Sequence record: NC_055721.1
Strand: one strand, 5' to 3'
DNA from: Escherichia phage EcS1
DNA: 64,000 nt
The notes under the pieces: generated by a model
Databases searched by the model: none
Seen by the model: the letters and a program-made list of their open reading frames with translations, nothing else
What the model was told of the DNA's origin: nothing
Translations under genes and position numbers: made by a program
Shown: positions 8,289 through 13,394 of the stretch, in pieces
Position numbering within the stretch: the first letter of the stretch is position 1
Layout of the letters: each line of letters opens with the position of its first letter

Positions 8289-8363
8289 TGGTCGAGACAG
8301 TAGGGATCGAACCTACGACCTAGGACTTAGAAGGTCCTTGCTCTTCCGTCTGAGCTATGCCCC
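8289..8363 (-). tRNA. tRNA-Arg (anticodon TCT)
   Basis: Anticodon arm GGAC-CTTCTAA-GTCC, T-loop TTCGATC, CCA encoded. Confidence 0.7.
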
Positions 8364-8525
8364 GTCTTTGTATAAACGTTCTAAGTAAACATGCTCCATC
8401 GGTTTAACGATTTCGCCTTGTTTCAATAATTGTGTTTGAATAGGATTCAAATTATAAAATTTGATCACATCTCTGAGATCTTGTTCGCTATAATTAAAAG
8501 TTCCTACTTCTACTCCGATTTGCAT
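8355..8525 (-). CDS. hypothetical small protein (56 aa)
   Basis: Small ORF between tRNA genes, not in the supplied track (below its length cut-off); stop overlaps the tRNA-Arg 5' end. Confidence 0.25.
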   Translation of the reverse strand: MQIGVEVGTFNYSEQDLRDVIKFYNLNPIQTQLLKQGEIVKPMEHVYLERLYKDGA

Positions 8526-8624: not shown

Positions 8625-8626
8625 AA

Positions 8627-8754
8627 ATGTTCAGGTGGGAGTCGAACCCACACGATTGAAGCCTCTCATCGGGTTACCTCTTACTCAGCTGGGTGCTTAA
8701 ACCAGCGTTTCAAACAGAGTCCGCCAACATGTCTACCGATTCCATCACTGAACA
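8627..8754 (-). ncRNA. tRNA-like stable RNA candidate (about 128 nt)
   Basis: Perfect 7-bp acceptor-like pairing (TGTTCAG/CTGAACA) next to a canonical T-arm (GTGGG-TTCGACT-CCCAC) and a Leu-like D region (GGAATCGGTAGAC), but too long for a tRNA and without a clean anticodon arm. Confidence 0.35.
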
Positions 8755-8758
8755 ATTT

Positions 8759-8983
8759 TTACATATCTACTTGACAAAACCAGTTCATTTCAAAATATTC
8801 ATCAAAATGTAATGCAGGTTCTACTTGACAATTTTCTTCTAATAAGACCAAATTTCTTCTAACAATAGGGTCTAATGACGTGATGGTCAAAGCACTATCA
8901 TGATAGTAAATCAGAACACGAAGCGAATCTGTATCAACTAAATACCGAACATTCATATCAGGATGTTTGTAGAGGTTAATCAT
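8759..8983 (-). CDS. hypothetical protein
   Basis: 74-aa ORF upstream of the tRNA block. Confidence 0.4.
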   Translation of the reverse strand: MINLYKHPDMNVRYLVDTDSLRVLIYYHDSALTITSLDPIVRRNLVLLEENCQVEPALHFDEYFEMNWFCQVDM

Positions 8984-8989
8984 AACATT

Positions 8990-9436
8990 TTATCCTTGAA
9001 GCATTTCACGAACACGATAAAGATTAGAACAGAATTCTTGTTCAGTTAGAACAGTTTCATTCTTTTTATTCTTACCCATGCTATGAGTTAATGTTGAGTT
9101 ACGCGTAGCTAGGAGTGCTCTCTTGAATCCTTCATTCAAAGCCAGAGAATCATATGCTCGCTGAATTAAAGACGTATAGGCTATACTTTGACGTAAAATA
9201 GGGACACCTTTCCAGTACAACGTTTGGGTGCGCCACCAGTTCTTTTTCTTACCTTTGAACTTAGCTTTCTTACCAACTAATGTACAGACATGCTCTTGCA
9301 TTTCTACTGAAGAAAACTTCAATGATTGCAAGAAACCTTCCATTGATGCACACTGTACTCCATCAATTTCGAAAGCATGAGGAGCAAAGTTACTTAATGC
9401 ACAACTTGGGTACATTGAACCTGAACCAATATCCAT
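8990..9436 (-). CDS. NADAR-domain protein (YbiA/DUF1768-like)
   Basis: LSNFAPHAFEIDGVQCASMEGFLQSLKF and FKRALLATRNSTLTHS match conserved NADAR blocks (compare E. coli YbiA FSNFAAWPIKVDGKTWPTSEHYFQAQKF and LRALLLATAPAKLVEHT). Confidence 0.65.
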   Translation of the reverse strand: MDIGSGSMYPSCALSNFAPHAFEIDGVQCASMEGFLQSLKFSSVEMQEHVCTLVGKKAKFKGKKKNWWRTQTLYWKGVPILRQSIAYTSLIQRAYDSLALNEGFKRALLATRNSTLTHSMGKNKKNETVLTEQEFCSNLYRVREMLQG

Positions 9437-9527
9437 TATCCATTATTCCTTTGATGATAATAACAGCGTTTACATCGATACCAACCGAAATAATCTTTGT
9501 AGATTATTCTATTGCAGTTGGGACATT

Positions 9528-9782
9528 TCATGCTGGTTCTACCTCAGTCATTGTTGTCCGTTTCAGAACCACACAACCTTCTATTTCAGGGTCTTTCTTA
9601 ACCAGAACTCGTCCAGTAGGCGAAATAAGGCCAGTAATATGATTCAGAGCTTTAGCAGCATCATTGAAGCCATCAGCTTGCATAATCGTTCCGAATGAGA
9701 ACCCTTGATAGTGATTACTAAACTCGTAATAAGCGTATTCTTCACGAATAGGGCAATAAATCACATAATCAACATTCAGCAT
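9528..9782 (-). CDS. hypothetical protein
   Basis: 84-aa ORF. Confidence 0.4.
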   Translation of the reverse strand: MLNVDYVIYCPIREEYAYYEFSNHYQGFSFGTIMQADGFNDAAKALNHITGLISPTGRVLVKKDPEIEGCVVLKRTTMTEVEPA

Positions 9783-10114
9783 AAGTCACCTACACATTGG
9801 AGAGCACGATGGTGTGACCATATTTCTAAAGTCTTTTCGTTGGCTTTATTAATTCGACGAAGGTCATTTAAATTACCTTTAACATATAACCCAAGTTCAC
9901 TTAACAAATGATCGATAGTGAAATAAGAAATATCTCGCAGTGGAGCATAACGGAACTTAATGAAGTGCCATTCATCAAACTCGTTTTTGGTAAACGCATA
10001 ATCAGCATGCATCATGAGTTCGCGAATCGTTTCACGCATCAAAAAGACATTACCGTGATAAGAATCATTTATAGCAACAATATGTGGACCTACACCTAGA
10101 TAGATACGAGACAT
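9776..10114 (-). CDS. hypothetical protein
   Basis: 112-aa ORF preceded by RBS GAGGAAA. Confidence 0.45.
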   Translation of the reverse strand: MSRIYLGVGPHIVAINDSYHGNVFLMRETIRELMMHADYAFTKNEFDEWHFIKFRYAPLRDISYFTIDHLLSELGLYVKGNLNDLRRINKANEKTLEIWSHHRALQCVGDLC

Positions 10115-10133
10115 AATATTTTCCTCAGTCAGT

Positions 10134-10304
10134 TTATTCTACATCATATTCAACTACAAGCACTTCTTCATAATCTTCAGGATTAAGAGTTTTAATGTAG
10201 TCTTCTGCTTTTTCTTTACTCGATAGAATCTTTAATGGCTTTGAATATTCATCATATCCATATTCACAGTTAAACTCTGACATAACAACTGCGTATACTA
10301 TCAT
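10134..10304 (-). CDS. hypothetical small acidic protein (56 aa)
   Basis: ORF below the track cut-off; the same RBS (GAGGAAAATATT-ATG) as the downstream gene. Confidence 0.35.
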   Translation of the reverse strand: MIVYAVVMSEFNCEYGYDEYSKPLKILSSKEKAEDYIKTLNPEDYEEVLVVEYDVE

Positions 10305-10324
10305 AATATTTTCCTCATTTGAAT

Positions 10325-10401
10325 TGGTGGCCCTTGTCGGAGTCTAACCGACCTTACACCAGTTATGAGCTGGGCACTTTCACACGAAAGTATAAAGGGC
10401 C
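10325..10401 (-). tRNA. tRNA-Met-like (anticodon CAT), non-canonical D and T loops
   Basis: 77 nt with perfect acceptor stem and CCA, anticodon loop CTCATAA; D-loop lacks GG and T-loop is TTAGACT. Confidence 0.4.
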
Positions 10402-10458
10402 ATTATTAAAATATTTTTACTTTAATAATGGCCCTCTCCGAAGAGAGGACAGAGGGTA

Positions 10459-10743
10459 TTACTTACACATGAACTTAGCAACTTCATCGAAGCTGTTCAA
10501 GATGTAATAAGACTTAGGCGCACTGTATTCAGTAGGTTTAATAGTAATACGTACACGACCATGCAAGTCTTCAACTAATCCAACAACAGCACTTGAACGA
10601 ACAACAGCACGAGCAGTTGTAGGAATCTGACCGGTAGTCAGAGCTTGAAGTTCGGTGTCAATAAGGATTACAATACGTTCAGACATTTTAATTTCCATTT
10701 GTTGTTTCGATGTAGTAATAATAACATGATTATTTTGAAGCAT
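10459..10743 (-). CDS. hypothetical protein
   Basis: 94-aa ORF; start uncertain (internal Met candidates). Confidence 0.4.
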   Translation of the reverse strand: MLQNNHVIITTSKQQMEIKMSERIVILIDTELQALTTGQIPTTARAVVRSSAVVGLVEDLHGRVRITIKPTEYSAPKSYYILNSFDEVAKFMCK

Positions 10744-10801
10744 AACCGTTCAGAGACTAAAAAGCCCAGTACAAGATTTCTCTTGCCCGGGCGTCATTAT
10801 T

Positions 10802-11102: not shown

Positions 11103-11177
11103 TGGTGGGAGCTGTTGGTAACGATCCAACCTCTCGAGCTCTTCAGGCAAGCGCTAATCCGTCTCAGCTAAACTCCC
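11103..11177 (-). tRNA. tRNA-Phe-like (anticodon GAA), weakened anticodon stem
   Basis: 75 nt, acceptor GGGAGTT/AGCTCCC plus ACCA; anticodon loop CTGAAGA; two mismatches in the anticodon stem and an atypical T-loop. Confidence 0.4.
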
Positions 11178-12045: not shown

Positions 12046-12121
12046 TGGAGGCGAGTGATGGAATCGAACCATCGCGTAAAGGGATATGAACCCTTTATTC
12101 TACCACTGAAGTTAACTCGCT
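12046..12121 (-). tRNA. tRNA-Met (anticodon CAT), initiator-like features
   Basis: Anticodon loop TTCATAT closed by three consecutive G-C pairs (GGG/CCC); 1-72 position is an A-C mismatch; T-loop TTCGATT; CCA encoded. Confidence 0.55.
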
Positions 12122-12475: not shown

Positions 12476-12552
12476 TGGTGGGACATCATGGACTCGAACC
12501 ATGGACACCCGGATTAAAAGTCCGGTGCTCTAACCAACTGAGCTAATATCCC
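12476..12552 (-). tRNA. tRNA-Lys (anticodon TTT)
   Basis: Anticodon arm CCGGA-CTTTTAA-TCCGG, T-loop TTCGAGT, CCA encoded. Confidence 0.7.
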
Positions 12553-13060
12553 ATAGATATTTATCTATAAATCTCTTAGCTTGAGTATGACTTATATTTA
12601 AACTTTTACTAAACTTGGTTAATGCACCTCGTTTAGTAAAATCTATTAAATTATAAGCTTCAATTCTAGAAGCAATTTCTTCTTCAGACAAAACCAAAGC
12701 ATGGTTTTCTGAAATCTTTTTACGAGATTCTGTTGTATGTGACATACCAGTAAAACCAAGAGTAGGTTTTAGTCTACCATTAGCTTTAGCGTCTTGTGCA
12801 TTTTGTTTATTTGTCGCACAATAAATGTTTTCTAATGAATAAGGACCTATATCGCCTTTACGACACATGCAATAATCCAAACTTGCTTTACCACGTAAAT
12901 GATATTTACCTGTTGATTTCCACCAAGTAAACCACTCATCAAAAGTTAGATTAAATTCAATACCACGAGCTTTGGCATGAACTTTTTGCATACGGTACTT
13001 TTCATAATCTTCCATACAACTCTCACAAATTGGCAGTGCCGACGGGATTCGAACCCGCAT
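12530..13060 (-). CDS. putative HNH-type homing endonuclease with NUMOD-like and HTH-like C-terminal motifs
   Basis: CxxC plus Cys/His-rich N-terminal region (CESC...DYCMCRKGDIGPYSLENIYCATNKQN), NUMOD3-like GFTGMSHTTESRKKISENH, C-terminal HTH-like segment; both ORF ends overlap tRNA genes, so the true start is probably the internal Met at about 13015. Confidence 0.45.
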   Translation of the reverse strand: MRVRIPSALPICESCMEDYEKYRMQKVHAKARGIEFNLTFDEWFTWWKSTGKYHLRGKASLDYCMCRKGDIGPYSLENIYCATNKQNAQDAKANGRLKPTLGFTGMSHTTESRKKISENHALVLSEEEIASRIEAYNLIDFTKRGALTKFSKSLNISHTQAKRFIDKYLWDISSVG

Positions 13061-13284: not shown

Positions 13285-13394
13285 ATTGAAGACGTTATAT
13301 TTTATTTATATCATCGAAATGATATCGTCTTCGGCATGACTTGCTTCATTAGCAAGTCCATGTATTAATAATAACACTTAAAACTTAAAGCATA

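What the first reader, a model, noticed from the sequence alone, without database searches (positions are those of the whole stretch)
9528..10304. Three small unknown ORFs sharing an accessory island with the NADAR gene
ORFs of 84, 112 and 56 aa sit tightly packed with the NADAR gene between the tRNA block and a hairpin-flanked aberrant tRNA. Two of them use the identical RBS GAGGAAAATATT-ATG. None resembles a structural or replication protein, and small co-transcribed genes next to an anti-defence candidate are the kind of place where phage anti-defence or host-takeover proteins are found.
Basis: inference. Interest (0 to 1): 0.45.

Follow-up and report, generated by a model that had tools for sequence, protein, structure and literature searches.

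The report
Three orphan genes beside phage adfN
Three small, real but uncharacterised phage genes sit just upstream of a proven anti-defence gene (adfN) in a shuffle-prone tRNA region of the T4-like coliphage EcS1; their neighbourhood makes them reasonable anti-defence or host-takeover candidates, but nothing computable here shows what they do.

Summary
On the minus strand, ORFs of 56 aa (10134-10304), 112 aa (9776-10114) and 84 aa (9528-9782) run head-to-tail into the NADAR gene (8990-9436). The 56- and 112-aa ORFs start with an identical 16-nt initiation region. The window is Escherichia phage EcS1, where these ORFs are annotated gp290, gp291 and gp292, all hypothetical. The NADAR gene is gp30.3/AdfN, shown experimentally in T-even phages to counter DarTG1.

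All three ORFs look like real genes. Each belongs to a phage-only family of unknown function, and close relatives show purifying selection (dN/dS about 0.1-0.3). The 84-aa protein gives a confident AlphaFold model (pLDDT 93.6) with no solved-structure match.

They are accessory, not core. No homologue was found in T4 or any other Escherichia phage record. The 84- and 112-aa families recur near adfN inside the tRNA cluster across several other Tevenvirinae genera, in shuffled order.

A conserved junction (tRNA 3' end plus TGAGGAAAATATWATG) precedes a different ORF in each lineage. This points to cassette shuffling.

Function remains unknown. Anti-defence or host takeover is plausible but unproven. 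Interest is modest.

The parts
10718..10744 (-). MotA-box-like middle-promoter motif (TATGCTTCA, 12-nt spacer, TATTAT). It overlaps the annotated start of gp289 (o94) and is the candidate promoter for the operon.
   Evidence: Regex scan finds 5 such motifs on the minus strand of the window against 0.58 expected from shuffles. Function is inferred.
10459..10743 (-). o94 (EcS1 gp289, phrog_5980), the first gene of the unit. The true start is probably internal (M16 or M20).
   Evidence: It is 80% aa identical to Virsaitis27 ORF150.
10396..10447 (-). Two stem-loops that precede the tRNA-like element: CCUCUCUUCGGAGAGG, and an 18-nt-arm AT-rich hairpin.
   Evidence: I1. Both are conserved in Winklervirus.
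10325..10402 (-). Divergent tRNA-Met(CAU)-like cloverleaf with an encoded CCA end.
   Evidence: Fold z-score for the region is -5.96. It aligns to the canonical tRNA-Met of Winklervirus, Karamvirus and Moonvirus. ARAGORN and Rfam do not call it.
10302..10317 (-). Copy 1 of the 16-nt initiation region TGAGGAAAATATTATG, serving o56.
   Evidence: The same junction is conserved after a tRNA in five lineages.
10134..10304 (-). o56 (EcS1 gp290). An acidic 56-aa protein (pI 4.2) in phrog_18564, with a sub-threshold resemblance to DUF7336.
10112..10127 (-). Copy 2 of the 16-nt initiation region, serving o112.
9776..10114 (-). o112 (EcS1 gp291), phrog_3355 superfamily. W49, F51, K53, R55 and L70 are invariant.
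9528..9782 (-). o84 (EcS1 gp292), phrog_26712/23382 superfamily. An acidic protein with a confident alpha/beta model that has no known fold match.
9436..9531 (-). o31, an unannotated 31-aa CxxC-x15-CxxC ORF that bridges o84 and adfN.
   Evidence: No homologues were found, so its reality is unproven.
8990..9436 (-). adfN (gp30.3-type NADAR; EcS1 gp293).
   Evidence: PF08010 at E 1.5e-57. Its function is known from T-even phages. About 92% nt identity to Virsaitis27 is confined to the ORF.
8979..9005 (-). MotA-box-like motif spanning the adfN stop codon, positioned ahead of o74 and tRNA-Cys.
   Evidence: It is positionally conserved in Winklervirus, Marfa-like phages, Karamvirus and PEi20.
8759..8983 (-). 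o74 (EcS1 gp294, phrog_27825), the last ORF of the island.
   Evidence: It is 78% aa identical to myPSH1140 gp120.

Best explanation
The three ORFs are unrelated, genuine, accessory protein-coding genes of phage EcS1. They sit in the hyperplastic tRNA/adfN region.

Shown:
- Each belongs to a phage-restricted family of unknown function, and relatives are under purifying selection.
- They are packed into one same-strand string: tRNA-Met-like element, then o56, o112, o84, o31 and adfN.
- The o84 and o112 families recur near adfN inside the tRNA cluster of several Tevenvirinae genera, in changing order and combination. The o56 family turned up in that neighbourhood once (a Marfa-like contig) and otherwise elsewhere.
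- An invariant junction (tRNA 3' end, 6-9 nt, then TGAGGAAAATATWATG) is followed by a different ORF in each lineage.

Inferred:
- The string is transcribed before replication, from a MotA-type middle promoter at 10718-10744 plus read-through from the upstream tRNA cluster.
- Translation is coupled through the overlapping stop and start codons.
- New ORFs are swapped in and out by recombination at the conserved tRNA/RBS junction. In EcS1 this duplicated the 16-mer when o56 came in.
- The proteins act independently of AdfN's enzymatic activity. o84 and o56 are small, acidic, soluble and lack any conserved catalytic-type residues, so they are most likely stoichiometric binders of host or defence proteins. 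o112 has an invariant W-x-F-x-K-x-R face on a predicted beta-strand and most family members have a basic pI, so it is more likely a nucleic-acid or nucleotide binder.

The confidence given covers the whole statement. The shown parts alone (real, accessory, shuffled genes) I would put at about 0.85, and the binder or anti-defence role at about 0.35.
For: Identity. Exact matches to EcS1 gp290, gp291 and gp292.

Family membership. phrog_26712 (E 7e-27), phrog_3355 (E 6.5e-15) and phrog_18564 (E 2.3e-12), all of unknown function. All 12 o112-family members hit phrog_3355.

Purifying selection:
- o84 family: dN/dS 0.07-0.27. The Marfa versus L012 pair gives dS 0.84 and dN 0.10.
- Winklervirus o112 paralogues: dN/dS 0.14-0.29.
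- o56: about 0.27.

Structure. The o84 AF2 model has pLDDT 93.6 and pTM 0.79.

Accessory distribution.. None of these searches returned an Escherichia phage, and the family HMMs have no hit in T4 genes 30.4-30.9.

Synteny with adfN..

Conserved junction followed by different ORFs..

Duplicated 16-mer..

Mosaic boundary. Against Virsaitis27, adfN is 96% aa identical (dS 0.41), while the adjacent o84 is 45% identical with saturated synonymous sites.

Promoter motifs. MotA-box-like motifs are enriched on the coding strand.

Charge. Acidic pI for the o84 and o56 families.

Precedent. Regulatory-cassette-mediated shuffling in T4-type hyperplastic regions (PMC2839356 and PMC4122927).
Against: - No expression data exist.
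- The promoter call is a consensus match, and I did not check that EcS1 encodes MotA/AsiA.
- The o112 model has low confidence (pLDDT 62), so the strand-face argument is weak.
- The binder role rests only on size, charge and the absence of conserved catalytic residues.
Confidence: 0.5

Rival explanations
1. o84, perhaps together with o112, is a functional partner of AdfN. The two would form an adfN module that extends or regulates counter-defence against DNA ADP-ribosylation, for example by binding the DarT toxin as the non-enzymatic part of DarG does.
For: An o84-family gene lies directly upstream of adfN, or one ORF away, in EcS1, Winklervirus, Marfa-like phages, Karamvirus, Moonvirus and metagenomic contig L007. 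The two are translationally coupled through o31 in EcS1.
Against: - T4 AdfN alone is necessary and sufficient against DarTG1.
- T4 and Edwardsiella phage PEi20 carry adfN without an o84 homologue.
- Erwinia phage Cronus carries o84 between a DNA-binding protein gene and frd, with no NADAR nearby.
- There is no co-variation: adfN is 96% identical between EcS1 and Virsaitis27, while o84 is 45% identical.
Confidence: 0.12
2. The ORFs serve the tRNA cluster itself. They might act in tRNA processing, modification or repair, or protect tRNAs from host anticodon nucleases.
For: In nearly all lineages they lie inside the tRNA cluster, often starting 6-9 nt after a tRNA 3' end. o112 has an invariant aromatic/basic strand face and a mostly basic pI across the family.
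Against: - No match to any RNA-binding or RNA-modifying family in Pfam, NCBIfam or PDB.
- The Cronus copy of o84 and the Jiaodavirus copies of o56 lie outside tRNA clusters.
- o84 and o56 are acidic.
Confidence: 0.1
3. They are effectively neutral passengers. Recombination at conserved regulatory junctions moves them about, and they give the phage no adaptive benefit.
For: Patchy distribution, shuffled order and sharp mosaic junctions. Hyperplastic regions of T4-type phages are known ORFan reservoirs (PMC2839356 and PMC4122927).
Against: - dN/dS well below 1 in all three families.
- Full-length conservation at 25-55% identity across genera.
- A well-packed predicted fold for o84.
Confidence: 0.1
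4. One or more of the three are chance ORFs rather than genes.
For: They are short, and none has a known domain above threshold.
Against: Strong Shine-Dalgarno sequences and start/stop coupling. Protein-level homologues in several genera, PHROG matches and purifying selection.
Confidence: 0.02

Closest known systems
Hyperplastic-region ORFans of T4-type phages, shuffled through conserved regulatory cassettes (PeSL model; PMC2839356, PMC4122927)
   Same: These are small novel ORFs clustered between conserved blocks. Short conserved regulatory sequences sit at the junctions, and the ORF downstream differs between related phages.
   Different: The conserved junction here is a tRNA 3' end plus a 16-nt Shine-Dalgarno/start region, together with MotA-box-like motifs. 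It is not the early-promoter-plus-stem-loop composite that defines PeSLs. I did not test for canonical PeSLs.
T4 genes 30.4-30.9, the small ORFs upstream of 30.3/adfN in T4
   Same: They occupy the same position relative to adfN, are of similar size, have unknown function, and run in the same orientation with tight packing. T4 gene 30.6 even uses the same GAGGAAAATATWATG start region.
   Different: No sequence or profile similarity to o56, o112 or o84. In T4 the block lies between genes 30 and 31, not inside the tRNA cluster.
Pfam DUF7336 (PF24024)
   Same: o56 and its two homologues align end to end with the model (profile positions 1-51 of 60) and are of similar length.
   Different: All three score below the gathering threshold: 24.1, 18.3 and 14.8 bits against 25. 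The family itself has no known function and no literature.
Small acidic phage inhibitor proteins such as anti-CRISPRs (for example AcrIC8)

Membership tests
PHROG phrog_26712 / phrog_23382 (o84) | Significant match to the family HMM over most of its length | tested here: met
   E 7.1e-27, residues 4-82 against profile positions 3-81 of 83. Of 11 family members, 9 hit phrog_26712 and 8 hit phrog_23382.
PHROG phrog_3355 / phrog_25182 (o112) | Significant match to the family HMM | tested here: met
   E 6.5e-15. All 12 aligned relatives hit phrog_3355.
PHROG phrog_18564 (o56) | Significant match to the family HMM | tested here: met
   E 2.3e-12, residues 3-55.
Pfam DUF7336 (o56) | Score at or above Pfam's gathering threshold of 25 bits | tested here: not met
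   24.1 bits for o56, and 14.8 and 18.3 bits for the PKO111 and L012 homologues. The resemblance is borderline and consistent across all three, so I do not file o56 as a member.
gp30.3 / AdfN NADAR (the neighbouring gene) | Match to Pfam Phage_30_3 above threshold, with a full-length C-terminus (truncation inactivates RB69 AdfN) | tested here: met
   193.7 bits against a cut-off of 36, covering residues 9-144 of 148. 96.6% aa identity to Virsaitis27. The truncation criterion comes from PMC11257639. Activity of the EcS1 protein was not tested.
Core genes of T4-like phages | Present in essentially all T4-like genomes at a conserved position | tested here: not met
   37, 1 and 62 records out of 50,697 by tblastn, none of them an Escherichia phage. 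The family HMMs have no hit in the T4 region 30.4-30.9.
Known anti-defence proteins or defence-system components | Sequence or fold similarity to a characterised member | tested here: not met
   Needs deletion mutants and expression assays.
PeSL-type mobile regulatory cassettes | A conserved early-promoter-plus-stem-loop composite flanking variable ORFs | tested here: inconclusive
   Conserved hairpins, a tRNA and an RBS junction precede variable ORFs, and MotA-box-like motifs are present. No early-promoter composite was identified; the sigma-70 scan was at chance level.

The most novel reading that the evidence does not exclude
The o84 family is a counter-defence protein with a previously unseen small alpha/beta fold. 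It has travelled with adfN through at least six Tevenvirinae lineages because the two together protect phage DNA or replication against ADP-ribosylating or related defences. Its fast divergence (45% aa identity next to a 96%-identical adfN) would then reflect an arms race with a variable host target. o112 and o56 would be further members of the same anti-defence island.
Probability: 0.2. Interest if true: 0.6.

Novelty: new member of a known kind. Interest (0 to 1): 0.33.

Why it matters
The gene next door, adfN, is now an established counter-defence factor, and anti-defence genes tend to cluster. A short list of conserved, expressed-looking unknowns beside it is therefore a sensible place to look for new inhibitors.

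The most useful outputs here are practical:
- The o84 family gives a confident model with no match among solved structures, and it is linked to adfN in many genera.
- The conserved tRNA/RBS junction explains how such genes get swapped between phages.
- The locus has annotation gaps: the unannotated o31, the probably mis-set o94 start, and a decayed tRNA-Met.

None of this yet changes what is known about phage biology.

Tried and rejected
Sequence searches
- Word-indexed searches of 5.8 billion proteins with o112 and o84 returned only the EcS1 proteins themselves.
- A full HMMER scan of 1.84 billion representatives with o112 found one further relative. A profile search found nine proteins.
- Pfam, NCBIfam and PADLOC gave nothing above threshold.
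- PDB sequence and profile searches gave nothing.

Fold searches
- BFVD returned only uncharacterised phage proteins.

Relationships tested and rejected
- o84 and o56 are not remote homologues despite similar secondary-structure patterns (hhalign probability 0.4).
- The Marfa 111-aa ORF that sits where o112 would be is not an o112 homologue. It is a Cys-rich protein that does not align.
- The family HMMs do not hit T4 genes 30.4-30.9.

Searches that led nowhere
- IMG/VR scans added no new lineages. One call failed because the alignment had no conserved stretch.
- o31 has no homologues, with a best E-value of 0.8.
- The sigma-70 promoter and terminator scan was at chance level.
- The literature has nothing on DUF7336 and nothing specific to these EcS1 genes.

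Full report
**What is there**

Between 8.1 and 13.3 kb every gene in the window lies on the minus strand. The stretch holds 17 ARAGORN tRNAs, plus one more that only Rfam calls.

The finding's three ORFs are present exactly as described: o56 at 10134-10304, o112 at 9776-10114 and o84 at 9528-9782.

Reading the sequence shows a continuous string. After a tRNA-like element comes TGAGGAAAATATTATG and o56. Nineteen nt later the same 16-mer precedes o112. o112 overlaps o84 by 7 nt (ATGCTGA). o84 overlaps a 31-aa ORF, o31 (9436-9531), by ATGA. o31 abuts the NADAR gene (8990-9436) by TAATG. Six nt after the NADAR stop, o74 (8759-8983) begins, followed by tRNA-Cys.

The 16-mer occurs exactly twice, 190 nt apart. 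About 0.06 matches with up to two mismatches would be expected by chance in this window.

**Identity of the phage and the neighbour**

o112, o84, o56 and the neighbouring ORFs match Escherichia phage EcS1 proteins gp289 to gp294 exactly. EcS1 is a 175,437-bp genome and the type of genus Kagamiyamavirus in the Tevenvirinae. All of these proteins are annotated as hypothetical. o31 is not annotated.

The EcS1 genome itself is not in the BLAST phage collection. The nearest records are Winklervirus (Serratia X20 and CHI14, Erwinia Virsaitis27), which match in patches at about 84-85% nt identity.

The NADAR gene is a full-length gp30.3 protein (PF08010, 193.7 bits). gp30.3 has been renamed AdfN. In T-even phages it is necessary and sufficient to overcome DarTG1 (PMC11257639), and a T4 transposon screen confirmed this (10.1101/2025.11.20.689424).

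**Are the three ORFs real genes?**

Yes. Four lines of evidence agree.

- Family matches. Each ORF matches a PHROG of unknown function: o84 matches phrog_26712 (E 7e-27), o112 matches phrog_3355 (E 6.5e-15) and o56 matches phrog_18564 (E 2.3e-12).
- Full-length homologues. These exist in other genera at 25-55% identity.
- Purifying selection. Close pairs give dN/dS of 0.07-0.27 for the o84 family (Marfa versus L012: dS 0.84, dN 0.10), 0.14-0.29 for the Winklervirus o112 paralogues, and about 0.27 for o56.
- Structure. An 11-sequence alignment gave an o84 AlphaFold2 model with pLDDT 93.6 and pTM 0.79. It has three N-terminal strands, one helix and two C-terminal strands. The o112 model is weaker, at pLDDT 62.

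**What they are not**

No hit passed threshold in Pfam, NCBIfam or PADLOC, either for the ORFs or for whole family alignments. PDB sequence and profile searches found nothing.

o56 resembles Pfam DUF7336 end to end, but it and its two homologues all score below the gathering cut-off (24.1, 18.3 and 14.8 bits against 25). The family has no literature. o84 and o56 are not related to each other.

The three families are very sparse in sequence space. A full HMMER pass over 1.84 billion representatives found one relative of o112.

**Distribution and synteny**

The families are accessory. tblastn against 50,697 phage records finds o84 in 37, o112 in 1 and o56 in 62. No Escherichia phage is among them, although thousands of T-even-like coliphage records are in the collection. 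Using Karamvirus members as queries adds 45 records for the o112 superfamily and 33 for the o84 superfamily, again with no coliphages. The family HMMs do not hit T4 genes 30.4-30.9.

They are not random in position. The layouts below run in the direction of transcription.

| Lineage | Gene order |
|---|---|
| EcS1 | o94, tRNA-Met-like, o56, o112, o84, o31, adfN, o74, tRNA-Cys |
| Karamvirus myPSH1140 | o94, tRNA-Met, o112-family (gp123), 165-aa ORF, o84-family (unannotated), adfN, o74, tRNA-Cys |
| Moonvirus NM4.3 | tRNA-Met, 80-aa ORF, o112-family, 169-aa ORF, 42-aa ORF, short o84 form, adfN |
| Uncultured phage L007 | tRNA-Gly, o112-family, o84 paralogue, o81, tRNA-Met, o84 paralogue, 40-aa ORF, o84, 77-aa ORF, adfN |
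| Winklervirus | o94, tRNA-Met, o84, 74-aa ORF, adfN, tRNAs, o112 paralogue |
| Marfa-like Klebsiella phages | tRNA-Met, 45-aa ORF, 111-aa Zn protein, o84, adfN, o81, tRNAs, then o56 in one contig |

There are exceptions. Edwardsiella phage PEi20 and T4 have adfN without o84. Erwinia phage Cronus has o84 between a DNA-binding protein gene and frd. Jiaodavirus carries o56 after gene 23, where one record fuses it to a gp24 fragment.

**How the region evolves**

The nucleotide alignment of EcS1 with Virsaitis27 is about 92% identical from the adfN start codon to a few bases past its stop. It collapses on both sides. adfN shows dS 0.41 and dN 0.02. The adjacent o84 has saturated synonymous sites and dN 0.49. 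The two genes therefore have different histories.

A junction made of a tRNA 3' CCA, 6-9 nt and TGAGGAAAATAT[T/A]ATG is invariant in five lineages, but a different ORF follows it in each. That ORF is o56 in EcS1 and o84 in Winklervirus. It is an o112-family gene in Karamvirus and in L007. It is an 80-aa ORF in Moonvirus and an o84 paralogue in L007. EcS1 carries a second copy of the 16-mer in front of o112.

The simplest reading is that ORFs are exchanged by recombination at this conserved initiation cassette, and that o56 entered EcS1 this way. This is the same logic as the regulatory-cassette (PeSL) shuffling described for T4-type hyperplastic regions (PMC2839356 and PMC4122927), but with a different motif. 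It remains an inference.

**Expression (inferred)**

MotA-box-like middle-promoter motifs (TGCTT-type box, 11-13 nt, then TAnnnT) occur five times on the minus strand of the window. Shuffles predict 0.58. Three of the five are in this region.

- 13394, ahead of the tRNA cluster. This one is conserved in Winklervirus and Marfa-like phages.
- 10744, overlapping the annotated o94 start.
- 9005, across the adfN stop. This one is positionally conserved in every lineage examined.

I therefore expect prereplicative transcription of o94, the tRNA-like element, o56, o112, o84, o31 and adfN as one unit, with coupled translation. I did not verify that EcS1 encodes MotA/AsiA. The generic sigma-70 and terminator scan was uninformative.

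**Function**

Nothing computable here assigns a function, so what follows is my best reading of weak cues.

The o84 and o56 families are small, soluble and acidic (pI 4.2-5.4 for most members). Their invariant positions are structural rather than catalytic: o84 keeps two alanines plus D5, V7, V72 and R75. That profile fits stoichiometric binding proteins of the kind phages use against host or defence proteins.

The o112 family is mostly neutral to basic in pI. Its invariant residues W49, F51, K53 and R55 alternate along the best-predicted beta-strand, which would place an aromatic/basic face on one surface. That suggests nucleic-acid or nucleotide binding, but the model is weak.

**Rivals**

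- Obligate partner of AdfN. Several results argue against this. AdfN works alone in T4. There are lineages with adfN but no o84, and one with o84 but no nearby adfN. The two genes also show no co-variation.
- tRNA-directed role. This fits the location. No family similarity supports it, and the copies outside tRNA clusters count against it.
- Neutral cargo. Purifying selection argues against this.

**Verdict**

These are new members of known but uncharacterised phage ORFan families, sitting in a known kind of plastic region beside a known anti-defence gene. Interest is modest. The best lead is the o84 family, which has a confident model with no solved-structure match and recurrent linkage to adfN.

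Noticed in passing
window 9436-9531 (-): An unannotated 31-aa ORF with two CxxC knuckles (zinc-ribbon-like) fills the gap between o84 and adfN, with ATGA and TAATG overlaps. It is absent from the EcS1 record and has no homologues (best E 0.8). Winklervirus and PEi20 carry an unrelated 73-74-aa ORF at this position.
   Followed up: partly
window 10325-10402 (-), with hairpins at 10396-10447: A tRNA-Met(CAU)-like cloverleaf with an atypical D arm and T loop. ARAGORN and Rfam both miss it. It is homologous to a canonical tRNA-Met at the same position in Winklervirus, Karamvirus and Moonvirus. It is probably a decaying or repurposed tRNA, since EcS1 has another tRNA-Met at 12046-12121.
   Followed up: partly
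window 10302-10317 and 10112-10127; loci L001, L002, L005, L007, L010, L015; T4 locus L008 7444-7458: The initiation region GAGGAAAATATWATG, placed 6-9 nt after a tRNA 3' end, is invariant across five phage lineages but is followed by a different ORF in each. The same 15-mer also starts T4 gene 30.6.
   Followed up: yes
window 8990-9436 compared with L001 3212-3658: adfN is a sharp-edged cassette. It is about 92% nt and 96.6% aa identical to Erwinia phage Virsaitis27, while the sequence immediately upstream and downstream is unalignable. This implies recent exchange of adfN or replacement of its flanks.
   Followed up: yes
window 10718-10744, 8979-9005 and 13368-13394 (-): MotA-box-like middle-promoter motifs. 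The one at the adfN stop is positionally conserved in all lineages examined. The one at 10744 overlaps the annotated start of gp289 (o94), so the real start of that gene is probably M16 or M20.
   Followed up: partly
window about 8626-8750 (-): A sequence of about 125 nt between o74 and tRNA-Cys has a tRNA-like acceptor pairing and a perfect T-arm (GTGGGTTCGACTCCCAC). Neither ARAGORN nor Rfam recognises it, and its overall fold energy is no better than shuffles. From memory, it might be an analogue of the T4 stable RNA species; this was not tested.
   Followed up: partly
window 11106-11177 (-): Rfam calls a tRNA here (36 bits against a gathering score of 29) that ARAGORN does not report.
   Followed up: no
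L006 (Klebsiella phage PKO111) 2162-2674: The CDS annotated as 'putative vertex head subunit' is a gp24-like N-terminal fragment fused in frame to a full-length o56 homologue that starts at an internal Met (locus position 2501). This looks like a likely mis-annotation.
   Followed up: partly
L015 (Enterobacter phage myPSH1140) 3633-3854 (-): An unannotated 73-aa ORF upstream of adfN belongs to the o84 superfamily (HMM E 1.8e-12). It is conserved at 89-100% identity in about 30 Karamvirus records.
   Followed up: yes
window 8355-8525 (-): The public name for this 56-aa protein is 'DUF1837 domain-containing protein'. My Pfam scan does not support that name: no family matched at E up to 1.
   Followed up: partly
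window 12530-13060 (-): A 176-aa ORF lies between tRNA-Lys and tRNA-Asp, and its 5' end overlaps tRNA-Lys. It has no Pfam match. By eye the sequence recalls homing-endonuclease-like proteins, but this is unverified.
   Followed up: partly
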